Shown here: positions 14,789-29,571 of the stretch, piece after piece
How positions within the stretch are numbered: position 1 is the first letter of the stretch
Layout of the letters: the number at the start of each line of letters is the position of its first letter
IMG/VR virus record: IMGVR_UViG_2541047736_000006
Reading direction: 5' to 3' (one strand)
Source: a virus
Lineage: Duplodnaviria; Heunggongvirae; Uroviricota; Caudoviricetes
DNA length: 29,571 nucleotides
Translations under genes and position numbers: made by a program
The notes under the pieces: model-generated
Databases searched by the model: none
Told to the model about the DNA's origin: nothing
What the model saw: only the letters and a program-made list of their open reading frames with translations

Positions 14789-15512
14789 AACTGCTGCCTC
14801 CCCATGTGAGATATCGCGGTGCCAGTTCGCGCAGGATGCGCTGCGGATAATGGCGGTTCTCCCGCCAGCTGGCCGCATTGCGTCCGGCATTCACCGTGGC
14901 GACATGTCCGAACCAGCGGGTGCTGTCCAGACCTTTCTGTGATGCAAGCCGCCTGTCCCGTTGTACCCAGCCCAGACCACCGTTATAGCCCGACAGTGTC
15001 ATGGCCATACGCTCGCAGTCACTGGCGGCGCTGACACGCTGCCACAGCCAGCGGTCATAGCTGACCAGCGCCCGGATAGCCCATGCCGGATTAAACGGCT
15101 CACGACTGCTCAGCATCGGTATCAACTGGCTTATCCAGTCGGCAGTGGCAGGCATGAACTGCGCCAGTCCCTGAGCGCCAGCCGGCGAGATCGCATCAGG
15201 TCGCCAGCCGCTTTCCTGATGCAGTTGCGCGGCGAAATCGGCCACCGGCGCAGACAGTCCCCATTCAAGCCGGGCATTACGGATCACATCATCGCGATAC
15301 TGCAGCGCAGCCTGCGGAGGTTGTGCTGCGCATGCCTGGCTGAAAAAGCCGCCACACCAGAGCAACATTGCGACAAAGAATACCCATGCCATATGAACCA
15401 GAAAGGTCCCGGCGCGGACTGACAGGCGTTCGGTTCTGATGAAGACCCGAAAGGCTTCGAAAGCCAGTTTCAGGGACATGCATACAATCCAGGTGATCTG
15501 CGGCCAGTTCAT
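14772..15512 (-). CDS. Endolysin, lytic transglycosylase (SLT domain)
   Basis: SLT signature (LHQESGWRPDAISPAGAQGLAQFMPATA). Hydrophobic N-terminal segment(s) suggest a secreted or signal-anchored endolysin. Start is ambiguous (ATG at 15512 right after the holin stop, or an internal Met). Confidence 0.8.
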   Translation of the reverse strand: MNWPQITWIVCMSLKLAFEAFRVFIRTERLSVRAGTFLVHMAWVFFVAMLLWCGGFFSQACAAQPPQAALQYRDDVIRNARLEWGLSAPVADFAAQLHQESGWRPDAISPAGAQGLAQFMPATADWISQLIPMLSSREPFNPAWAIRALVSYDRWLWQRVSAASDCERMAMTLSGYNGGLGWVQRDRRLASQKGLDSTRWFGHVATVNAGRNAASWRENRHYPQRILRELAPRYLTWGGSSCVASG

Positions 15513-15514
15513 GA

Positions 15515-15865
15515 TTAAAGCCCCATCGCAACAGCCAGGCAGACCGCTGCAACAATCAGTGCACGGCGGATTAACGCAGCAGAAAACACCAGGTGAAGGC
15601 CGGTCTGTACCGGGAAACGCCCTTCAGCCATCAGCCTGTCGTCATGTTTCAGGTACTGACCGGGACGGGCTTTGGGGAAGAGCGAACGGTCAAGCCAGTA
15701 ACCCAGCACTGCTGCCAGCGTGATGAGTGCCAGCTTGTAGATCACAACAGGCAGCTGCTGTGGTGAGACCAGAGCGATGGTGCCCAGCAACAGCACTGAG
15801 GTCAGCAGCCAGCCGCTGAGGCGAGGTTTTTTAACAGGGGGAATGAATTTTTTCAGGTTTTTCAT
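15515..15865 (-). CDS. Putative holin (first gene of the late operon)
   Basis: Start reassigned to ATG 15865..15863 (GAGGAGA 6 nt upstream). 116-aa product with two or three hydrophobic helices (WLLTSVLLLGTIALV, VVIYKLALITLAAVLGYWL, LIVAAVCLAVAMGL). Confidence 0.6.
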   Translation of the reverse strand: MKNLKKFIPPVKKPRLSGWLLTSVLLLGTIALVSPQQLPVVIYKLALITLAAVLGYWLDRSLFPKARPGQYLKHDDRLMAEGRFPVQTGLHLVFSAALIRRALIVAAVCLAVAMGL

Positions 15866-15995
15866 GTGTGTCTCCTCGTTTGGTGGAGACAGCATCACAA
15901 ATACAGGGCGCAAAGGATTTTAAAGCGCGTTAAGAGAGCCGGGGATACGGGATGTGCAGGATAAACGATGAATTATTCACAGAGGAGAATACGAT
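15866..15995. promoter_or_regulatory. Divergent control region: late-operon promoter (leftward) and promoter of the P-loop gene (rightward)
   Basis: 130-bp gap between divergent first genes, each with a strong SD (GAGGAG). Inverted repeat GTCTCC-N9-GGAGAC (15870..15890) overlaps the holin SD. Confidence 0.45.
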
Positions 15996-16724
15996 ATGAC
16001 GCACACACTGAATCCGGTCATCACTGTCACTGTGTCCGGTCCTGTGGGCAGCGGTAAAAGTTACGTACTGGCGCGGATAGAAGAGATGGTGAAACAGGAA
16101 CTCGGAAACAGCGTCATTGTCGATGCTGCTGACGTGGAGAATGAGCGCCGTATGAATGGCGAAGATCTGACGACCTGGCAGAAGCCACGGGGTGGCACAG
16201 TGATCAGGCTGGAGGAATACACGGGACAGGGCCTGTTGTCATACGGCGAGGAGCGTATCTGTCGGACGAATGAGCTGCTGGATGTTATATGCCCCACGGG
16301 CCGGCAACCCTGGATACTGCCCGATGCACTGCATGCCACCATTGCGGCACTGATGACAGTTTACGATCAGGAGCTGCTCATGAAGGAGTTACGTAAACTC
16401 ACCGGTCAGCCAACAGAATGTTGTTCGTCTCCGAAGTACGGCAAACAGGAACACATCCCGATTAACCAGCCTCCCCGGTTCTTCGACGAATACCTTCTGA
16501 CACCGGAAAATAAAGCTGAGCATGAAGAGATCAAAGCGGCGTTGTTCCGGGAAATCAGGAAGATTGCTGAAATGCAGTTGGGGGGCGGGCTGGACAGAGT
16601 GATGGCGAGAGGAGAATGGGCATCGCTGTTTGAAAGAGTTTCCCCGGAATTACTTCCCCTCGCACTGGCTATCGGGATTATGCAGACAGCGGATAAACCT
16701 CACTTACGTTCATTAAACACGTAA
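15996..16724 (+). CDS. P-loop NTPase / kinase-fold protein of unknown function
   Basis: Walker A motif GPVGSGKS at residues 15-22, preceded by a hydrophobic strand (VITVTVSG); GAGGAG 8 nt upstream of the ATG. Transcribed opposite to the late operon. Confidence 0.6.
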   Translation: MTHTLNPVITVTVSGPVGSGKSYVLARIEEMVKQELGNSVIVDAADVENERRMNGEDLTTWQKPRGGTVIRLEEYTGQGLLSYGEERICRTNELLDVICPTGRQPWILPDALHATIAALMTVYDQELLMKELRKLTGQPTECCSSPKYGKQEHIPINQPPRFFDEYLLTPENKAEHEEIKAALFREIRKIAEMQLGGGLDRVMARGEWASLFERVSPELLPLALAIGIMQTADKPHLRSLNT

Positions 16725-17104
16725 CGCATAATCCGGGATACGCATTCAGCGATGACTGCATTTTCACCGGTTTTTACTGCATCCAGAAGTGACTCTTTAA
16801 ATGGTACGGGCCGGGGCTGCAGAAAGGTCGGCATGGCATTGAGCAGACAGAGCGTTTTTTCCGTGAGGACGACATCAGCCGCTCCCACAGCCAGCAACTG
16901 AGAGTAACGAATATAGCTGTTATCCCGAAGCCATATCAGCGTATCAATAAAACACCGGCACTTTTTCTGGTCGTGATCAACCTGGTCCGGGATATCGAAA
17001 AAACCAGAATAAATCAAAACCTGAGGTGCCGGATGCGTGTTCAGTAATCGGCAGAATATTTTGCCGGTGAGTACATAAAAATCATCATTTAAGGAGTGCA
17101 TCAT
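16700..17104 (-). CDS. Hypothetical protein (134 aa), uncertain
   Basis: Only open frame across a 380-bp, AT-richer segment. No convincing SD, and its start codon overlaps the start of the divergent 71-aa ORF. Confidence 0.3.
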   Translation of the reverse strand: MMHSLNDDFYVLTGKIFCRLLNTHPAPQVLIYSGFFDIPDQVDHDQKKCRCFIDTLIWLRDNSYIRYSQLLAVGAADVVLTEKTLCLLNAMPTFLQPRPVPFKESLLDAVKTGENAVIAECVSRIMRYVFNERK

Positions 17105-17318
17105 GAATCCCCGATTAACGTTAACAGAACATCAGCGCCGTGCTGAAGCAGTGAACAATGTTCTGGAAGATATTATCCGGTTATACCGCGGAGAACTGAG
17201 TGTCTGTCGTGCCGCTTTTCATTTTCAGGGAATACAAAAGCAGTTTGATACTTCTGTTTTTGCAGAAGGTATTACTTATGCCCTGGACCGGATAAGGTCA
17301 GAAAATCGCCCCGGATAA
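17103..17318 (+). CDS. Small hypothetical protein (71 aa)
   Basis: ATG at 17103 with AAGGAG 6 nt upstream; followed 55 nt later by a perfect 12-bp hairpin. Confidence 0.45.
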   Translation: MNPRLTLTEHQRRAEAVNNVLEDIIRLYRGELSVCRAAFHFQGIQKQFDTSVFAEGITYALDRIRSENRPG

Positions 17319-17372
17319 TCCCTAAACCACATTAACAGAAATCCCGCCATCCCTGCCGCATCATGAAAGAAC

Positions 17373-17404
17373 GACCAGCCCGGCACCCGAAAGCCGGGCT
17401 GGTC
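17373..17404. terminator. Perfect 12-bp stem hairpin (possible terminator or RNA structure)
   Basis: GACCAGCCCGGC-ACCCGAAA-GCCGGGCTGGTC. No clear U-tract on the plus strand; a moderately T-rich run follows on the minus strand. Confidence 0.4.
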
Positions 17405-17508
17405 ATCGCCCCACAGGAATGCGCTGTGAGCCGACCAAGGTTCAGTCAGTCTCGCGAGACCTGACCAGACTGCCATATTTTTTAATAATTGTAAAAGGCT
17501 TACAGATT

Positions 17509-18276
17509 ATGAAAATGCAGACATTACCCATCGTGCCGTGGATTGGTGGCAAACGCCGCCTTGCAAAACACATTCTGCCGCTGTTTCCGGCGCATGAATG
17601 TTATGTGGAGCCGTTTTGTGGGGCAGCAGCGCTCTATTTTCTTAAGACACCCGGCAAGATCGAAGTCATCAATGATATCAACGGTGAACTGGTGAATCTG
17701 TACCGGGTGGTAAAGCATCACCTGGAAGAATTTGTCCGCCAGTTCAAATGGGCGCTGGTCAGCCGTCAGATCTACAAATGGCTGCAGATCACCCCGGAAG
17801 AAACACTGACGGATATCCAGCGTGCGGCACGGTTCTACTACCTCCAGAAGCAGGCGTTTGGTGGCAAGGTGGCAGAGCATAGTTTCGGCACCTCCACCAC
17901 ATCCCCGCCACGCTTCAACCTGCTGCGTATTGAGGAAGAGCTCTCAGCGGCACACCTGCGACTTTCCAGAACGGTGATAGAACACATGGACTGGCAACAG
18001 TGCATTGAGCGTTATGACCGTCCGCACACGCTGTTCTACTGCGACCCACCGTACCTGGGTACGGAAGGCTATGGTGTGGATTTTCCTGAAGGGAACTACT
18101 CGCGGTTGGCAGAGCTGGCCCGTTGCATCAGAGGAAAGATGATTATATCGGTCAACGATATCCCGGAAATGCGGCAGGTTTTTAACGGTCTGAACATTCA
18201 CTGTGTGAAGGTCAACTACAGTCTTGCAGGAAAGGGAACACTACGGCGCGAACTTATTGTAAGTAATTTAGAGTAG
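17509..18276 (+). CDS. dam: DNA adenine N6-methyltransferase (Dam-like, D12 class), orphan
   Basis: Conserved N-terminus (PIVPWIGGKRRLAKHILPLFP... YVEPFCGAAALYF), catalytic DPPY (LFYCDPPYLG). Start at ATG 17509 (MKMQTLP...). No adjacent restriction endonuclease ORF. Confidence 0.85.
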   Translation: MKMQTLPIVPWIGGKRRLAKHILPLFPAHECYVEPFCGAAALYFLKTPGKIEVINDINGELVNLYRVVKHHLEEFVRQFKWALVSRQIYKWLQITPEETLTDIQRAARFYYLQKQAFGGKVAEHSFGTSTTSPPRFNLLRIEEELSAAHLRLSRTVIEHMDWQQCIERYDRPHTLFYCDPPYLGTEGYGVDFPEGNYSRLAELARCIRGKMIISVNDIPEMRQVFNGLNIHCVKVNYSLAGKGTLRRELIVSNLE

Positions 18277-18301
18277 GCTCAGAAGGAGGTAAGTAGTCTT
18301 G

Positions 18302-18333
18302 CATAACAATGCACCTGATGGTGCATTGTTATG
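18302..18333. terminator. Bidirectional terminator-like hairpin between convergent genes
   Basis: Perfect 14-bp stem CATAACAATGCACC-TGAT-GGTGCATTGTTATG, between the Dam stop (18276) and the membrane-protein stop (18329..18331, inside the stem). Confidence 0.5.
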
Positions 18334-18766
18334 ATATCACTTTGATTATATTGAATAATCGCCTACCTGTTTGTAATAAACACAACATAGACATAACAAC
18401 AAGCCCAATGAGGATAGCGGCTACAATCTCTTGATGCTTACTTTGCAGCATCAACCCAATCAAACATGTCAACACCAACACTAGCAAAACTAAGCAAGTG
18501 TAGAATGCATCGGTCATCAGACGCTTGTAATGTCCGGTTTTTTGCATGTTTTTAAGTAACGGTTTATCAAGCAATGATGCAAGTAGTGCAATTGCTGTAA
18601 TAATAAAACCTAACAACGTTGCAAAGACACTGGACAATGTAGTCATGAAGTTTGGGATTGCGGCTACTGGCATATGGGGCAACTTGAACCAGTAGAGAAA
18701 ACCAATCCCACATCCAATCAATAAACTAAGCAATAGGGCCGAGTTCATCTTCTCCAATATATGCAT
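18329..18766 (-). CDS. Small four-TM membrane protein (candidate effector of a repressor-linked module)
   Basis: Four hydrophobic helices (ALLLSLLIGCGIGFLYWF; LSSVFATLLGFIITAIALLASLL; AFYTCLVLLVLVLTCLIGLML; IVAAILIGLVVMSMLCLL). Preferred start is ATG 18766 (GGGAGAG 5 nt upstream), inside the 3' end of the upstream 297-aa gene; the track's ATG 18790 is the alternative. Confidence 0.6.
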   Translation of the reverse strand: MHILEKMNSALLLSLLIGCGIGFLYWFKLPHMPVAAIPNFMTTLSSVFATLLGFIITAIALLASLLDKPLLKNMQKTGHYKRLMTDAFYTCLVLLVLVLTCLIGLMLQSKHQEIVAAILIGLVVMSMLCLLQTGRRLFNIIKVIS

Positions 18767-19619
18767 TGATACTCTCCCGGTTTTCAGCATACGCAGTATC
18801 GATTAGACGGTACATGGTTTCGGCTGGAGGGAAACGAGCGTCAGTAACTACCGATTGATAGGACGAAATACGCTCGGCAATCAAATCCACAGGATGGACA
18901 ACACCATCAGCATCGAACACATCAATTACAGCCTTTTTCGCCCCAAACTCGACTAACTCTTGCATAGCAAATTTTATATTCTGCTTAAGCCTACCATCAC
19001 TATCGCCACGGCGAGTATTAATCCCCATTACAATTTGCATTGTATCGGCACCTGCATCACCAAGCAGTTGTAGTGTCTTTTGACTGAAATCAGTATCAGG
19101 GTAAAACTCAGGATTACGGGGGCGAGGAATCGTCAACTGGATTTTTTTCATTTTGACATCTCCTCTCATAAGCCTAGCGATTGCATCTTTTTCCAGCAAA
19201 GGTGCGGGCTTAACCTTTGAACCAAAGATAGTTGAAAGAAATGCACTAAAACGGCTTATACCACAAGCCATATGATTATAGTGCCAACCTATAACATTGA
19301 TTCGAGGATAGAATACAAAGAAATTGCGCTCAATGATCCCTTCATCCTTGGCAAGTGGAATAGGGGTAGACTGTTTCCCTGGTGCACCTTTATCCGGAAT
19401 GTTCGAGTTGCGAAATTTTCTCAACTCTCCACTAAAAGAACCATCCGCGCGTTTTTTCAACCCCCAAATTTCTCTAGTAAAACCCTCATGGTTTGAAGAG
19501 GAAGGGCTCTGTTTATCAATTACAGATTGAAAAGCATCTCCGAGATTTGCCAGCTGATCTGTGGCCTTAAACGATAGCTGATGAAACTCAATACGATAAT
19601 TTCTCACATCACCACTCAT
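18726..19619 (-). CDS. 297-aa soluble protein of unknown function (candidate sensor partner)
   Basis: ATG at 19619 with AAGGA 8 nt upstream; no TM segments or motifs I recognise. Overlaps the start of the 4-TM gene; visibly AT-richer than the phage backbone (by eye, not computed). Confidence 0.6.
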   Translation of the reverse strand: MSGDVRNYRIEFHQLSFKATDQLANLGDAFQSVIDKQSPSSSNHEGFTREIWGLKKRADGSFSGELRKFRNSNIPDKGAPGKQSTPIPLAKDEGIIERNFFVFYPRINVIGWHYNHMACGISRFSAFLSTIFGSKVKPAPLLEKDAIARLMRGDVKMKKIQLTIPRPRNPEFYPDTDFSQKTLQLLGDAGADTMQIVMGINTRRGDSDGRLKQNIKFAMQELVEFGAKKAVIDVFDADGVVHPVDLIAERISSYQSVVTDARFPPAETMYRLIDTAYAENRESINAYIGEDELGPIA

Positions 19620-19741
19620 ACGATTAATCCTTAACGCGGAAAGTTCAGATGGTTAGTGCAAACAGCACATCCTACTGTTTAAATCAGCGCATATAACGAA
19701 GAGGTTTGATAACCTTGTCAATTGTTCTCATTGGGAATAGA

Positions 19742-20173
19742 TTAACCCACATTTTTTAACCGCTCAATCGTTGCGGATAATTCCTTCAGTTGTTTTTCCA
19801 TCTCGATCACTCGCTGTTTTTCCGCAGCGCCTCGCAGAAGATCGTTACGAACCTCGGGGTCTAGCTGCTTTAAAAGCTCAAGCATAGTAAGGTCAGCTTG
19901 GCTAAACTGCACTTGCGTCGGAGTTACGTCTACTTCTTTTGATAAACCTTGTTTTCTACCTGTTAGCAACCAATCTAAAGAAACCCCCTTTTCTTCTGCG
20001 ATGTTTATGCAAATTGCATAAGGCACAGAATCACGCTTCCTCCAACTTGCAAGTGTCTGCCTATTGACGTTAAGCGCTCTTGCCAACTCACTATCATTCT
20101 CTGCTTGGAATAGTGACATTAACCGGGAAAGCACAGCGTTAACATCTTTGTTATTCATTTTGCGTAATTCCAC
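19742..20173 (-). CDS. Prophage repressor (CI/c-type HTH)
   Basis: HTH segment LARALNVNRQTLASWRKRDSVPY. Divergent from the Ner-like gene across a 73-bp operator region. Start may be the GTG at 20173 or the ATG at 20158. Confidence 0.75.
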   Translation of the reverse strand: MELRKMNNKDVNAVLSRLMSLFQAENDSELARALNVNRQTLASWRKRDSVPYAICINIAEEKGVSLDWLLTGRKQGLSKEVDVTPTQVQFSQADLTMLELLKQLDPEVRNDLLRGAAEKQRVIEMEKQLKELSATIERLKNVG

Positions 20174-20246
20174 TTGATTTATTTATTTTGAATAAGTACA
20201 TTTATTCATATTGAGTACATGATAACCCAACTGGAACTATCCGCAT
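20174..20246. promoter_or_regulatory. Immunity switch region (operators and divergent promoters)
   Basis: Direct repeats AGTACAT at 20195..20201 and 20214..20220, and an inverted repeat GAATAA-GTACAT-TTATTC at 20190..20207, between the divergent repressor and Ner-like genes. Confidence 0.45.
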
Positions 20247-20471
20247 ATGAATAAACAACAAGTTCGGGCACGACTAGTTGAACGAGGCAGTAGCTTGCGC
20301 CAGTTCGCGCTTAACGCAGGCTATGAGCCACGAACAGTCACACAGGCAGTCAGTCGCTGGGCTGGTAAAAGTGAACTACCACGTGGTCGTTTGACTTATC
20401 GGATTTTGCGAGATCTATCGGTTGCAATAGGTAAAGAAGTTACCCCCGGTATCCTTAAGGAGGTGTCATGA
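20247..20471 (+). CDS. ner: Ner-like / Cro-like DNA-binding protein
   Basis: 74-aa protein in the same place as Mu Ner (75 aa), first gene of the early operon and divergent from the repressor; HTH-like segment SLRQFALNAGYEPRTVTQAVSRW. Confidence 0.6.
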   Translation: MNKQQVRARLVERGSSLRQFALNAGYEPRTVTQAVSRWAGKSELPRGRLTYRILRDLSVAIGKEVTPGILKEVS

Positions 20472-20776
20472 ATAAACCAAATACATCAAGCGCAGGTACC
20501 CGTATTTTGCGTGTTCTTAAGGCGTTACGTGGCCACGCTCTGAACGGTATCTCCAACGGTGAACTGGCGGCAGCACTGCACGAGTCACCAGCAAACATTA
20601 ATCGGGCACTCAACACCCTCATTGAAGAAGGGCTGGCCCTGAAACTGGAGAATGGACGTTTTGCACCGGGCATCCAGTTACTGCAGATCGCCATGGCTCA
20701 CAGTAACGAGATGGCACGAGCGCAGGATCGTATTAACGAAATCAACCAACGTGTCATTTCAGGTAGTCGTTTATAA
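20468..20776 (+). CDS. Winged-HTH regulatory protein (102 aa)
   Basis: ATGA overlap with the Ner-like gene; wHTH-like N-terminal region (RILRVLKALRGHALNGISNGELAAALHESPANINRALNTLIEEGLA). Confidence 0.5.
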   Translation: MNKPNTSSAGTRILRVLKALRGHALNGISNGELAAALHESPANINRALNTLIEEGLALKLENGRFAPGIQLLQIAMAHSNEMARAQDRINEINQRVISGSRL

Positions 20777-27466: not shown

Positions 27467-27908
27467 ACAACGTCTTATCCAGCTCATTCATATTGCCCGT
27501 AATGAACTGGGTATGGATGAAGACAGCTACCGCCAGATGTTACAGGGGCTGACCGGTAAAGCCTCAACCAAAGGAATGGATACCACACAACTAAACTGCG
27601 TGCTGGAATCCATGAAAAGGAAAGGCTTTCGCGTTAAGCCTGCCGGAAAAGCCAGCTCCGGTTTACCGCTGGATAACCATCCGCAGTCCAGGAAAATCCG
27701 TGCGCTATGGCTTGAAATGGCTGCTGCCGGCATTGTTCGTGACCGTTCAGAAAATGCATTAGCGCGGTGGATCAAGCGGGAAACGGGCATCAGCGCCCTG
27801 CGCTGGCTCAATACTGAACAGGCAAGCAGTGTTATTGAGAAACTGAAGAAGTGGCAGCGCAGAGCTGCGGGAGTAAAACATGAGCGACCTGAATCAGTTT
27901 CGAAGTAA
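27456..27908 (+). CDS. gemA: GemA-like regulatory protein (Mu gp16 family)
   Basis: Start at ATG 27456 (GAAGGAG 5 nt upstream). N-terminus MMTKQRLIQLIHIARNELGMDEDSYRQML fits the GemA pattern; lies directly upstream of the Mor-like gene, as in Mu. Confidence 0.65.
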   Translation: MMTKQRLIQLIHIARNELGMDEDSYRQMLQGLTGKASTKGMDTTQLNCVLESMKRKGFRVKPAGKASSGLPLDNHPQSRKIRALWLEMAAAGIVRDRSENALARWIKRETGISALRWLNTEQASSVIEKLKKWQRRAAGVKHERPESVSK

Positions 27909-28269
27909 AGGGCCGGAACTCCTGGTGGAACTGGCACAGCATACCTCTGAGACCGTTCGCGAGATTATTGATATTGAGCCCGCAATTGCCGACCAGATTG
28001 GTCAGGCCGTCGCGAACCGCATGATGCAGGTCTGGGGCGGGCAAAACGTTTATTTCCCGATGGGCATGGTATGGAAGGTCAGTCAGCGCGATCGGGAAAT
28101 CTTCAGGGAGTTTAACGGACGTAACCACCATGAACTGGCCCGCAAATTTGGTGTTTCGCTTCAGTGGGTCTACAGCGTGGTTAAGCGGGTAAGAAAAGAA
28201 GAACTGGATCGGATGCAGGGCAAGCTATTTGCTGATGAACCCGATGTAGATACGGAGAAAAAAGAGTAA
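27880..28269 (+). CDS. mor: Mor/C-family transcription activator (late-gene activator)
   Basis: C-terminal half matches the Mor/C pattern (GGQNVYFP..RDREIFREFNGRNHHELARKFGVSLQWVYSVVKR); GGGAG upstream of the ATG. Confidence 0.75.
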   Translation: MSDLNQFRSKGPELLVELAQHTSETVREIIDIEPAIADQIGQAVANRMMQVWGGQNVYFPMGMVWKVSQRDREIFREFNGRNHHELARKFGVSLQWVYSVVKRVRKEELDRMQGKLFADEPDVDTEKKE

Positions 28270-28299
28270 TATCTGCAATCAGGCTGGCGCGAGTTCTGT

Positions 28300-28448
<149 letters not shown>

Positions 28449-28449
28449 G

Positions 28450-29571
28450 TTGCGCTATAACGGCAATAACGCCCTGATGTTCGCGACATATCAGGACAAG
28501 ATGCTGGTGTTTTCCAGCACGGATATGCTGTTTAAAGATGATCAGCAGGATACCGAAGCCACGGCGATCGCAAGTGATTTGTTGAGCGGCAAAAAACGCT
28601 GGCAAGCCAGCTTTGGCCTGGAAGAGCGTGCTGCCGAAAAAACGCCAGTACGCCAGCGCATCGTGGCCAGCGCCAGGTTGCTGGGTTTTGGCTACCAGCG
28701 ATTAATGCCTTCTTTTGCTGGCGTACGCTTCGAAATGGGTAACGACGGCTGGCACAGTTTTGTGGCGTTAAATGATGAATCCGCCAGCGTAGATGCCAGT
28801 TTCGATTTTACGCCGGTCTGGAACAGTATGCCTGCCGGGGCCAGCTTCTGTGTGGCGGTGCCGTATTCACACGGTATTGCCGAAGAGATGCTTTCGCACA
28901 TCAGCCAGGAAAACGACAAGCTGAATGGGGCGTTAGACGGTGCCGCGGGGCTGTGCTGGTATGAAGACTCAAAATTGCAAACCCCGCTGTTTGTCGGTCA
29001 GTTTGATGGCACTGCCGAACAGGCGCAATTGCCAGGGAAACTGTTTACGCAAAATATTGGTGCGCACGAAAGCAAAGCGCCAGAAGGTGTTTTGCCGGTA
29101 AGCCAGACTCAGCAGGGCGAAGCGCAAATCTGGCGTCGCGAAGTGAGTTCCCGATACGGCCAGTATCCGAAAGCGCAGGCGGCGCAACCCGATCAATTAA
29201 TGTCGGATTATTTTTTCCGTGTGTCGCTGGCGATGCAAAACAAAACGCTGCTTTTCTCCCTCGATGACACGCTGGTTAATAACGCGCTGCAAACACTGAA
29301 TAAAACCCGCCCGGCAATGGTGGATGTAATACCCACTGATGGCATCGTTCCGCTCTATATCAATCCACAAGGAATAGCGAAACTGCTGCGTAACGAAACG
29401 TTGACCAGTCTGCCGAAGAATCTCGAACCGGTTTTTTATAACGCCGCACAAACTTTATTAATGCCGAAGCTGGACGCTTTATCTCAACAACCGCGTTATG
29501 TCATGAAGCTGGCCCAGATGGAACCCGGTGCCGCCTGGCAGTGGCTACCCATAACCTGGCAGCCGCTATGA
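28450..29571 (+). CDS. Host chromosomal gene, probably 5'-truncated by the prophage insertion
   Basis: 373-codon open frame ending in TGA at the last base of the window. It begins at a TTG with no SD, and the frame is open from 28,429 (in-frame TAA at 28,426..28,428), inside the phage-end repeats. I have a vague memory of an enterobacterial YfaA-type (DUF2138) protein but cannot confirm it. Confidence 0.55.
   Translation: MRYNGNNALMFATYQDKMLVFSSTDMLFKDDQQDTEATAIASDLLSGKKRWQASFGLEERAAEKTPVRQRIVASARLLGFGYQRLMPSFAGVRFEMGNDGWHSFVALNDESASVDASFDFTPVWNSMPAGASFCVAVPYSHGIAEEMLSHISQENDKLNGALDGAAGLCWYEDSKLQTPLFVGQFDGTAEQAQLPGKLFTQNIGAHESKAPEGVLPVSQTQQGEAQIWRREVSSRYGQYPKAQAAQPDQLMSDYFFRVSLAMQNKTLLFSLDDTLVNNALQTLNKTRPAMVDVIPTDGIVPLYINPQGIAKLLRNETLTSLPKNLEPVFYNAAQTLLMPKLDALSQQPRYVMKLAQMEPGAAWQWLPITWQPL

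What the first reader, a model, noticed from the sequence alone, without database searches (positions are those of the whole stretch)
15996..17318. Accessory cluster next to the late promoter: orphan P-loop NTPase with convergent and divergent small ORFs
Seen: a 242-aa ORF with an N-terminal Walker A (GPVGSGKS) in a kinase-like strand-P-loop-helix arrangement, transcribed divergently from the late operon with a strong SD. It is followed by a convergent 134-aa ORF (weak signals) and a 71-aa ORF whose ATG (17103) overlaps the opposite-strand start (17104), then a perfect 12-bp hairpin. None belong to the conserved Mu-type early or late modules. Inference: a moron region; small P-loop kinases in prophages include toxin-like (zeta-type), nucleotide-modifying and anti-defence proteins, so this could be a toxin/immunity or defence/counter-defence unit.
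Basis: partly seen in the sequence, partly recalled or inferred. Interest (0 to 1): 0.6.

Follow-up and report, generated by a model that had tools for sequence, protein, structure and literature searches.

The report
Prophage accessory cassette with head-to-head genes
In a common Mu-like (BcepMu-type) prophage of E. coli, the three flagged genes are real but of unknown function: a mosaic protein that carries only a 75-residue fragment of an ATP-binding fold, and a swappable pair (a winged-helix DNA-binding protein and a small partner) whose start codons share the same four bases, an arrangement that recurs in the defence-gene hotspot of unrelated P2-like phages.

Summary
All three ORFs, the Walker A motif, the shared start (CATG, 17102-17105) and the 12-bp hairpin are present, and all three ORFs are conserved genes (PHROGs 3787, 2266, 4490). 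The window is a BcepMu-like transposable prophage found in about 10% of complete E. coli genomes.

The region is a recombination hotspot, but the 242-aa protein is not a recognisable kinase or complete NTPase. Only its first ~75 residues (strand, GxxGxGKS, helix, strand, W61, E74) are conserved. That mini-domain gene keeps a fixed backbone position, divergent from the lysis/late operon and upstream of dam, while its C-terminus is a mosaic of swapped modules.

The exchangeable unit is ~16397-17309: the C-terminal module of the 242-aa protein, the 134-aa protein (predicted winged helix) and the 71-aa protein. The 134/71 pair has relatives in the old/tin hotspot of P2-like phages, always with CATG-overlapping divergent starts (57 of 57 loci) and non-homologous small partners.

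Proposed but unproven mechanism: an antisense-coupled switch. Late transcription (P242, S71, dam), probably Mor-activated, opposes leftward expression of the winged-helix gene. No known defence, toxin or anti-defence family matches.

The parts
15866..15995 (.). Divergent control region between the holin (lysis/late operon, leftward) and the 242-aa gene (rightward). It holds an invariant dyad TTAAAGC|GCGTTAA at 15920-15933 (centre 15926.5). Invariant -10-like hexamers lie 33 bp to either side: GATGCT on the - strand (15891-15896) and CAGGAT on the + strand (15957-15962).
   Evidence: Alignment of six loci with 65-100% overall identity. A Mor-family activator gene lies at 27880-28269. Promoter function is inferred, not shown.
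15996..16724 (+). 242-aa mosaic protein (P242, phrog_3787): N-terminal mini P-loop domain, middle module and C-terminal helical module.
15996..16226 (+). N-terminal ~75-77-residue domain, the only part conserved across the family. Walker A GPVGSGKS is at 16038-16061. Invariant residues are G20, K21, I28, W61 and E74.
   Evidence: Exhaustive HMMER search (62 hits, nearly all covering profile positions 1-~75). Alignments. The PDB profile search matches only the strand/P-loop/helix of many NTPases.
16397..17309 (.). Exchangeable segment: C-terminal part of P242, the 134-aa gene and the 71-aa gene. The left breakpoint is at 16396 (locus L082) or 16460 (L061). The right breakpoint is at 17310.
   Evidence: blastn of the window against related prophage loci. 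Genome counts.
16461..16724 (+). C-terminal helical module of P242 (about residues 156-242). It is a free-standing 102-aa ORF in locus L016 and always accompanies the 134/71 pair.
   Evidence: The AF2 helices at 173-241 have pLDDT about 60-78.
16700..17104 (-). 134-aa protein (B134, phrog_2266): predicted winged helix plus C-terminal helices. Its last 25 nt overlap the end of P242. An alternative start is at 17101.
17102..17105 (.). CATG shared by the two divergent start codons.
   Evidence: Present in 57 of 57 loci from three diverged lineages.
17103..17318 (+). 71-aa protein (S71, phrog_4490). Its SD AAGGAG at 17091-17096 lies inside codons 3-5 of the 134-aa gene.
   Evidence: Homologue in L016 (31% identity, E 6e-9).
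17373..17404 (.). Perfect 12-bp stem with an 8-nt loop. There is no U-tract on the + strand. GUUCUUUC follows it on the - strand. It is a backbone element upstream of dam.
17461..17515 (.). Overlapping divergent sigma-70-like promoter candidates: + strand CTGACC-17-AATAAT (towards dam) and - strand TTTTCA-16-TACAAT (towards the hairpin, the antisense of S71, and B134).
   Evidence: Consensus scans only.
17509..18276 (+). Dam-family N6-adenine DNA methyltransferase, a backbone gene downstream of the cassette.
   Evidence: Pfam MethyltransfD12 1e-29 and TIGR00571. Synteny.

Best explanation
The flagged cluster is two things joined together inside the accessory hotspot of a BcepMu-like transposable prophage of E. 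coli.

(1) A backbone gene. It encodes a ~75-residue Walker-A mini-domain and is the first gene transcribed rightward from a symmetric, probably Mor-activated, bidirectional late promoter region. It heads a transcription unit that runs towards dam. I read this unit as analogous to Mu's late mom operon (an analogy recalled from memory, not tested here).

(2) A ~0.9-kb exchangeable cassette fused in frame to that gene. It comprises a helical C-terminal module, a winged-helix protein (134 aa, leftward) and a small soluble protein (71 aa, rightward).

The winged-helix gene and the small gene have no intergenic space: their ATGs share CATG. Each gene's ribosome-binding site, and almost certainly its promoter, therefore lies inside the partner gene, and each mRNA is antisense to the other's translation start.

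The most likely working principle is a mutually exclusive, antisense-coupled switch. Leftward transcription, in the direction of the repressor and the other lysogen-expressed cargo, makes the winged-helix DNA-binding protein. Rightward late transcription (P242, then S71, then dam) makes the small protein and silences the winged-helix gene.

Shown: the genes are real; the fold class of the 134-aa protein; the mosaic structure; the linkage of the three parts; the conserved CATG architecture in two phage families; the hotspot location.

Inferred: the promoters, the timing of expression, the antisense coupling, and any role in phage-phage or phage-host conflict.
For: Identity of the element:
- The flagged 1.55-kb segment (15900-17450) is 98% identical to Escherichia phage PhiKM (Bcepmuvirus) and is present in 614 of 5426 complete E. 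coli genomes.
- The late operon starts with holin, SLT endolysin and Rz.
- The early operon carries the transposase, Gam, GemA and Mor.

Backbone gene:
- In all 27 BcepMu-like loci (24 retrieved with the N-domain as query, 3 with the 182-aa variants), the mini-domain gene lies directly divergent from the holin. In most it is followed, after variable inserts, by dam.
- This holds even where the holin is only 64-68% identical and the C-termini are unrelated.
- C-terminal modules of family members match other small PHROGs of unknown function.

Cassette:
- Breakpoints are at 16396/16460 and 17310.
- C-module 499 genomes/530 places, S71 499/529 and B134 492/520, against 570/620 for the N-terminal part.
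- The C-module is free-standing next to the pair in L016.
- The 182-aa variants keep the C-module and the pair.

Pair:
- Homologues of ~31% identity in P2-like phages lie between portal Q and replication gene A, flanked on both sides by changing cargo: a reverse-transcriptase-like protein (annotated 'polymerase'; YVDD motif read by eye), a Fic protein (annotated in FSL SP-004), and proteins read by eye as DUF262-like and ATPase-like.
- CATG overlap in 57 of 57 loci.
- Both genes are under purifying selection.
- The small partners of the two lineages are not detectably homologous.

Control signals:
- Invariant dyad with symmetric -10-like hexamers.
- Mor gene present.
- No sigma-70-like promoter scoring above a weak 6.6 lies directly upstream of S71, which fits read-through from P242. 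In L067 and L070, where B134 is deleted, S71 follows P242 by 56 nt.
- Candidate face-to-face promoters lie inside the P2-type pair (26/36 and 17/36 sequences).
Against: - No transcript, protein or binding data exist.
- The consensus scans found no more promoter-like sites than shuffled sequence. The candidate promoters inside the window's pair are weak (score 6.6).
- The hairpin could terminate leftward transcripts before they reach the 134-aa gene.
- Loci were retrieved with the pair itself as query, so its apparent constancy within P2-like hotspots is partly ascertainment.
- The 57 loci represent only three diverged lineages.
- The Mor-site reading rests on spacing rules for Mu's Mor and C proteins recalled from memory.
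Confidence: 0.4

Rival explanations
1. Toxin/immunity unit. The 242-aa protein is a zeta-like or other small P-loop kinase toxin, and the 134-aa and/or 71-aa proteins neutralise it.
For: A Walker A motif is present and invariant in the family. The three coding parts are linked. The location is an accessory hotspot.
Against: - No kinase or zeta family hit. Similarity to NTPases ends after strand/P-loop/helix.
- The conserved domain is ~75 residues, and stand-alone 78-88-aa versions exist.
- Common variants lack residues 53-124 or the whole C-terminus.
- What is linked to the pair is the C-module, not the P-loop domain.
- The pair occurs without any P-loop gene in P2-like phages.
- The genes are not a co-directional operon.
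Confidence: 0.07
2. Regulator plus anti-defence effector, resembling Aca-Acr loci. The winged-helix protein is a conserved autoregulator, and the small, lineage-specific partner (71 aa here, 63-64 aa in P2-like phages) is an inhibitor of a host or competitor defence system, made early or late in lytic growth.
For: - A conserved HTH-type protein is paired with non-homologous small soluble proteins.
- The small gene is co-oriented with lytic transcription in both phage families and has a strong SD.
- S71 is retained when the winged-helix gene is deleted.
- In the window's lineage S71 evolves faster than the backbone genes (S71 0.3-0.6 against 0.05-0.15 for holin and dam).
Against: - Known acr-aca pairs are co-directional operons (recalled from memory), whereas this pair is divergent.
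- No similarity to any solved structure or family.
- The pair sits among defence genes rather than in known anti-defence loci.
- No target can be named.
Confidence: 0.2
3. The 134/71 pair, with or without the C-module, is itself an anti-phage defence or superinfection-exclusion system carried as hotspot cargo.
For: It lies in the P2 old/tin hotspot next to defence-like cargo and in the variable region of the BcepMu-like prophage. The hotspot concept is from PMC9122126 and PMC13586616 (titles and abstracts; text of PMC13586616).
Against: - No PADLOC hit.
- There is no enzymatic or membrane effector domain.
- The pair stays constant while the cargo on both sides changes, which suits a regulatory hub better than cargo.
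- Retrieval bias applies.
Confidence: 0.15
4. The mini P-loop protein is a nucleotide- or DNA-metabolism accessory factor that works with the Dam methyltransferase or with nucleotide supply, and the rest is unrelated cargo.
For: The N-domain gene and dam are syntenic in most BcepMu-like loci that carry the N-domain gene. A stand-alone 82-aa homologue lies between thymidylate synthase and dihydrofolate reductase, 2.4 kb from an N6-adenine methyltransferase, in Vibrio phage 1.101.O. Another lies among replication genes in L088.
Against: - Variants lack the conserved W61 and E74.
- In L016 the position is occupied by a protein without the domain.
- The C-termini are hypervariable, which is unusual for a housekeeping factor.
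- The association rests on a few contexts.
Confidence: 0.15
5. One or more of the small ORFs are non-coding chance ORFs.
For: Translation signals of the 134-aa ORF are weak (GGGGA). PhiKM's depositors did not annotate it.
Against: Amino-acid-level conservation where the DNA is no longer alignable. dN/dS of 0.08 and 0.14 over hundreds of pairs. PHROG families. A confident fold prediction.
Confidence: 0.03

Closest known systems
Face-to-face promoter switches of P2 (C/Cox, Pc/Pe) and 186 (CI/Apl, pL/pR), and IS10 RNA-IN/RNA-OUT (recalled from memory)
   Same: Divergent genes whose transcripts overlap at their 5' ends, so that one transcription unit interferes with the other. In IS10 the antisense RNA covers the partner's ribosome-binding site and start codon, as would happen here for both genes.
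   Different: Here there is no intergenic region at all: the ATGs share CATG. Both RNAs would be protein-coding. The proteins are unrelated to C, Cox, CI or Apl. No promoter has been mapped. The module lies in accessory hotspots, not in the immunity region.
Anti-CRISPR/Aca-type loci (a conserved HTH regulator next to variable small inhibitors; recalled from memory)
   Same: A conserved DNA-binding-fold protein is paired with small, non-homologous, fast-evolving partners in temperate phages, Mu-like ones included.
   Different: Divergent rather than operonic arrangement. A winged helix with no sequence match to any family in Pfam; not compared with Aca families specifically. No known Acr match. 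No defence target identified.
Cargo of the P2 old/tin hotspot between replication gene A and portal gene Q (Rousset et al. 2022, PMC9122126; PMC13586616)
   Same: The P2-type relatives of the pair sit exactly there, among defence-like genes (reverse-transcriptase-like, Fic, and DUF262-like and ATPase-like by eye).
   Different: The pair stays while the cargo on both sides changes. It has no recognisable effector domain and no PADLOC match.
Mu late transcription: Mor/C activators and the com-mom DNA-modification operon (recalled from memory)
   Same: A Mor-family gene ends the early operon. A conserved dyad lies ~43 bp from each putative start of two divergent units, one being the lysis/late operon and the other leading to a DNA methyltransferase.
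   Different: A single shared dyad for two divergent promoters. The modification enzyme is a Dam-type methyltransferase, not Mom. The genes upstream of it (P242, S71) have no Mu counterpart.
P-loop NTPases, and the ~55-110-residue designed 'P-loop prototype' proteins (PDB 6c2u, 9jix)
   Same: A strand, GxxGxGK[ST], helix element. The profile matches ABC ATPases, CMP kinase, PilT and the designed P-loop proteins over ~35-45 residues.
   Different: The conserved natural domain ends at ~75 residues. It has no Pfam-level membership, no clear Walker B (only an invariant Glu after a predicted strand) and no further core strands.

Membership tests
P-loop NTPase (any class) | Walker A motif GxxxxGK[ST] after a beta-strand and before a helix | tested here: met
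   GPVGSGKS at residues 15-22. G20 and K21 are invariant in 15 diverse family members; a few members have GKN instead of GKS/T.
P-loop NTPase (any class) | Walker B (hydrophobic strand ending in Asp/Glu) and a full alpha/beta core of at least five strands | tested here: inconclusive
   Conservation ends at ~residue 75. The only candidate is the invariant E74 after predicted strand 69-76. D43 is not conserved. The 182-aa variants lack residues 53-124. The AF2 model is of low confidence.
P-loop NTPase (any class) | Match to a curated family model above its gathering score | tested here: not met
   The best Pfam hits are AAA_30 at 16.9 bits (cut-off 27) and others lower. NCBIfam and PADLOC hits are likewise below cut-off and limited to residues ~2-58.
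Zeta-toxin / small P-loop kinase / dNMP kinase | Sequence or fold similarity beyond the P-loop (lid, substrate-binding region) | tested here: not met
Winged-helix (wHTH) DNA-binding proteins (MarR/PadR/Z-alpha-like folds) | Helix, strand, helix, helix and beta-hairpin wing topology | tested here: met
Winged-helix (wHTH) DNA-binding proteins (MarR/PadR/Z-alpha-like folds) | Membership of a named sequence family (MarR, PadR, DUF2513 and others) | tested here: not met
   No Pfam, NCBIfam or PDB sequence hit for six family members or for their profile. UniRef's 'DUF2513' label for P0091 was not reproduced.
Winged-helix (wHTH) DNA-binding proteins (MarR/PadR/Z-alpha-like folds) | Sequence-specific DNA (or RNA) binding | not testable with these tools
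   Needs EMSA, ChIP or footprinting. A 10-bp palindrome TTAACGTTAA at 17115-17124, read by eye in the sequence just upstream of the 134-aa start, is only a lead and is absent from L016.
Type II toxin-antitoxin module | Two co-directional, usually overlapping genes in one autoregulated operon, one with a toxin fold | tested here: not met
   The genes are divergent or convergent. No toxin domain was detected. A deletion variant keeps S71 without B134.
Known anti-phage defence systems (PADLOC-DB 2.0) | Match of at least one component to a system model | tested here: not met
   The 134-aa and 71-aa proteins have no hit. The 242-aa protein has only P-loop noise (E >= 0.009). Only dam matches methyltransferase models.
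Face-to-face (convergent-promoter) genetic switch | Promoters placed so that the two transcripts overlap at their 5' ends | tested here: inconclusive
   The overlap of the start codons forces the RBSs, and very probably the promoters, into the partner gene. Candidate promoters were found in the P2-type pair (26/36 and 17/36 sequences) but only weak ones in the window. No transcript data.
BcepMu-like transposable phage (Bcepmuvirus), context of the window | Near-identity to a classified member. Mu-type transposase, Gam, GemA, Mor and DUF935 portal, with early and late arms divergent | tested here: met
   The flagged 1.55-kb segment is 98% identical to phage PhiKM (Bcepmuvirus). Gene content.

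The most novel reading that the evidence does not exclude
The winged-helix/small-protein pair with CATG-sharing divergent start codons is a previously undescribed, horizontally mobile 'mutual-antisense' toggle. It travels between the accessory hotspots of unrelated temperate phages (P2-like and BcepMu-like) and gates lysogen-specific against lytic-specific expression of hotspot cargo, or is itself a defence/anti-defence couple. Separately, the 75-residue Walker-A domain would be a natural minimal P-loop domain used as a constant 'handle' for swappable effector modules.
Probability: 0.2. Interest if true: 0.75.

Novelty: new variant of a known kind. Interest (0 to 1): 0.5.

Why it matters
This prophage sits in roughly one in ten complete E. 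coli genomes, many from clinical isolates, and all three genes are annotated only as hypothetical.

If the head-to-head pair is a switch that couples hotspot cargo to the lysogenic/lytic decision, it would explain how prophages keep defence or conversion genes on in the lysogen and off during their own replication. It would also give a portable marker for finding hotspots in other phage families.

If the small partners are inhibitors of host defences, the conserved winged-helix gene could serve as a guilt-by-association anchor for finding new ones, as Aca genes did for anti-CRISPRs.

The mini P-loop family bears on the question of how small a functional phosphate-binding domain can be in nature.

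None of this is established yet. At present the finding is a well-characterised unknown.

Tried and rejected
- **Family scans.** Pfam, NCBIfam, PADLOC and PDB sequence searches of all three proteins and of family profiles gave nothing above cut-off except generic Walker A similarity.
- **Foldseek of the 134-aa model against viral structures.** No hit at E <= 0.001. The afdb50 library was unavailable.
- **Homology between the 71-aa protein and the P2-type 63-aa proteins.** Rejected (hhalign probability 0.1%).
- **186 Tum-like antirepressor idea for the large protein.** Not supported: only 11 phage records (6 of them distinct phages) match, and 186 is not among them. I did not check that 186 is in the collection.
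- **LexA box search.** No site in or near the cluster, and counts are at chance level.
- **Rfam.** No RNA family in 15500-20600.
- **Sigma-70 and terminator consensus scans.** Counts are no higher than in shuffles.
- **P242 as the late activator.** Unnecessary, because a Mor-family gene is present.
- **Literature searches** for BcepMu-like E. coli prophages, DUF2513, overlapping divergent start codons and small P-loop anti-defence proteins found nothing that describes these genes.
Full report
**What the window is.** The 1.55-kb segment around the finding is 98% identical to Escherichia phage PhiKM, which is classified in Bcepmuvirus. It is present on the chromosomes of 614 of 5426 complete E. 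coli genomes. Leftward from 15865 runs a lysis/morphogenesis operon: a Holin_2-3 holin, an SLT endolysin, Rz, a terminase and a DUF935 portal. Rightward from 20468 runs the early operon. It carries an IclR-type HTH protein in the position of Mu ner, DUF3102, an rve transposase, an AAA+ transposition protein, Gam, GemA and a Mor-family activator at 27880-28269. A host DUF2138 gene follows from 28450. The finding lies in the central region between the two arms, together with dam, two low-GC genes and the repressor.

**Check of the observation.** These are the three ORFs and their coordinates, GPVGSGKS at 16038-16061, the strong SDs of the 242-aa and 71-aa ORFs, the start codons sharing CATG at 17102-17105, and the perfect 12-bp hairpin at 17373-17404. 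All three ORFs are genes. They match PHROGs 3787, 2266 and 4490 over their full lengths, and RefSeq annotates them. They evolve under purifying selection that is weaker than for holin or dam.

**The 242-aa protein.** The word-indexed search found only E. coli relatives. They occur in three architectures: 247 aa; 182 aa lacking residues 53-124; and 141 aa lacking the C-terminus. The exhaustive HMMER search found 62 representatives, and nearly all share only profile positions 1 to ~75. That segment is a strand, GxxGxGK[ST], a helix, a strand, a loop with an invariant Trp, and a strand ending in an invariant Glu. It occurs in front of unrelated C-termini of 100-290 residues and also alone as 78-88-aa proteins.

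**Position of the mini-domain gene.** In all 24 BcepMu-like loci retrieved with the N-domain, and in three more retrieved with the 182-aa variants, the gene is the first one divergent from the holin. In most of them dam follows, after variable inserts. This holds where the holin is only 64-68% identical and the C-terminus is entirely different. The N-terminal part is therefore backbone, not a moron. Stand-alone homologues lie among replication genes in a high-GC phage. Another lies between thymidylate synthase and dihydrofolate reductase in Vibrio phage 1.101.O.

**The exchangeable cassette.** Related E. coli prophages share the window's sequence up to 16396 (L082) or 16460 (L061). They then diverge, and in L082 similarity resumes at 17310. 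The replaced segment holds the C-terminal module of the 242-aa protein, the 134-aa gene and the 71-aa gene.

| Part of the cluster | Genomes (of 5426) | Places |
|---|---|---|
| N-terminal 400 nt of P242 | 570 | 620 |
| C-module of P242 | 499 | 530 |
| 134-aa gene | 492 | 520 |
| 71-aa gene | 499 | 529 |

(Counts.)

The 182-aa variants keep the C-module and the pair. Variants without the pair lack the C-module. In the more distant locus L016 the C-module is a free-standing 102-aa ORF without any P-loop domain. It is convergent with a 54%-identical 134-aa homologue and a 31%-identical 71-aa homologue. A deletion variant (L067, L070) has lost 16733-17050, most of the 134-aa gene, but keeps the 71-aa gene 56 nt after the 242-aa gene. 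The three coding parts are thus a linked unit, and in E. coli the first part is fused in frame to the backbone mini-domain.

In every one of 57 loci examined, a 63-86-aa ORF starts on the opposite strand with its ATG overlapping the large gene's ATG by two bases, forming CATG. These loci comprise the window type, L016 and the P2 type. The small proteins of the window type and the P2 type are not detectably homologous. Each type is conserved as protein: for the P2 type, median dN/dS is 0.14 for the small gene and 0.08 for the large gene, and the other reading frames contain stops.

In P2-like prophages the pair lies between portal gene Q and replication gene A, which is the old/tin hotspot. The cargo on both sides changes from locus to locus. 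It includes a reverse-transcriptase-like protein (annotated 'polymerase') with an HTH protein, a Fic protein, a DinI-like protein, and, judged by eye from sequence motifs only, DUF262-like, ATPase-like, TIR-like and metallo-beta-lactamase-like proteins. Because the pair was the search query, its constancy is partly ascertainment.

**How it may work.** With no intergenic space, each gene's SD lies in the partner's first codons. The promoters must lie inside or beyond the partner gene, so the two mRNAs would be complementary across both translation starts.

No good promoter precedes the 71-aa gene. It is co-oriented with the 242-aa gene and dam, and in the P2-like phage Midge the small gene is co-oriented with the gene A operon upstream of it. 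The 134-aa gene is co-oriented with the repressor and the other presumed lysogen-expressed cargo. A sigma-70-like leftward promoter overlaps the dam promoter at 17461-17515. Candidate face-to-face promoters exist inside the P2-type pair.

Upstream, the holin/242-aa intergenic region contains an invariant dyad, TTAAAGC|GCTTTAA, with its centre at 15926.5. It is flanked symmetrically, 33 bp on each side, by invariant -10-like hexamers on opposite strands. Together with the Mor gene this suggests a single activator site serving both the lysis/late operon and a rightward late unit (P242, S71, dam). That arrangement is comparable to Mu's C-dependent Plys and Pmom, although the spacing rule for Mu is recalled from memory.

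I therefore propose a mutually exclusive, antisense-coupled switch: the winged-helix protein is made in the lysogen, and the small protein together with the mosaic protein is made late. All of the expression steps are inferred. The consensus scans are no better than shuffles, and the hairpin might stop leftward transcripts.

**Comparison with known systems.** The architecture resembles the face-to-face promoter switches of P2 and 186, and IS10 RNA-IN/RNA-OUT, but it is more extreme and sits in hotspots rather than in the immunity region. The pattern of a conserved HTH-type protein with variable small partners resembles Aca-Acr loci, but the orientation differs. No component matches PADLOC, toxin, kinase or anti-defence families. 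A role in defence or counter-defence stays open, resting on context only.

**Verdict.** The genes are real, widespread and uncharacterised. The notable features are the conserved CATG head-to-head pair shared by two phage families, and the mosaic proteins built on a 75-residue Walker-A domain. Function and mechanism remain hypotheses that simple transcript mapping and genetics could settle.

Noticed in passing
window 15866-15995 (dyad 15920-15933; hexamers 15891-15896 and 15957-15962); Mor gene 27880-28269: The holin/P242 intergenic region carries an invariant dyad, TTAAAGC|GCTTTAA. It is flanked 33 bp on each side by invariant -10-like hexamers on opposite strands, conserved in six loci of 65-100% identity. 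It looks like one Mor/C-type activator site shared by two divergent late promoters.
   Followed up: partly
window 18329-19619 (- strand): Two low-GC (42%) genes co-oriented with the repressor: a 153-aa multi-pass membrane protein and a 297-aa protein (phrog_7651). They are absent from PhiKM and most related loci but present in L082. No PADLOC or Pfam match. They look like a lysogen-expressed moron, possibly an exclusion or abortive-infection pair.
   Followed up: partly
window 20151-20217: Three 16-nt direct repeats (TTATTCATTTTGCGTA-like, spacing 28 and 23 nt), starting within the 5' end of the repressor ORF as listed (19742-20173) and extending into the region upstream of the early operon. 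They are probably repressor operators.
   Followed up: no
window 18302-18333: A perfect 14-bp inverted repeat with a 4-nt loop between the convergent dam and membrane-protein genes. It is likely a bidirectional terminator.
   Followed up: no
window 17106-17129 and 17317-17340: A 24-nt direct repeat (75% identical; AATCCC...ATTAACAGAA) brackets the 71-aa ORF almost exactly, from 3 nt after its ATG to its stop codon. The right-hand copy lies at the cassette's right breakpoint (~17310). It may be chance or a recombination scar.
   Followed up: partly
L069 6588-7052 (-); L090 and L091 5393-5773 (-): Some E. coli prophages carry a second, 126-aa paralogue of the winged-helix protein (27% identity). 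It is inserted just upstream of dam and divergent from it, without a CATG-overlapping small partner.
   Followed up: partly
L093 2471-2719 (Vibrio phage 1.101.O, MG592473); L088 4992-5240: Stand-alone 82-aa versions of the Walker-A mini-domain occur in unrelated phages. One lies between thymidylate synthase and dihydrofolate reductase near an N6-adenine methyltransferase. The other lies among replication genes.
   Followed up: partly
window 16733-17050 (absent in L067 and L070): A 318-bp deletion with ~7-nt overlap at the junction removes residues 18-134 of the winged-helix protein but leaves the 71-aa gene intact. About 9-10 places in complete E. coli genomes appear to have it.
   Followed up: partly
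window 16450-16470: The window's 242-aa protein lacks five residues (PVNTL/PVNTI) found in the 247-aa majority form, within a short repeat PVNT-PVNQ.
   Followed up: no
window 28270-28450: The prophage's early-arm end must lie between the Mor gene stop (28269) and the host DUF2138 gene (from 28450). The transposable-phage end sequence was not examined.
   Followed up: no
L003-L060 (P2-like loci), about 190-222 nt upstream of the large gene's ATG: A ~30-nt non-coding stretch just beyond the stop of the P2-type small ORF (GAGATAACATATTGATATAGATCC) is almost invariant across 36 distinct sequences, whatever gene follows. It could be a cassette boundary or a control element.
   Followed up: no
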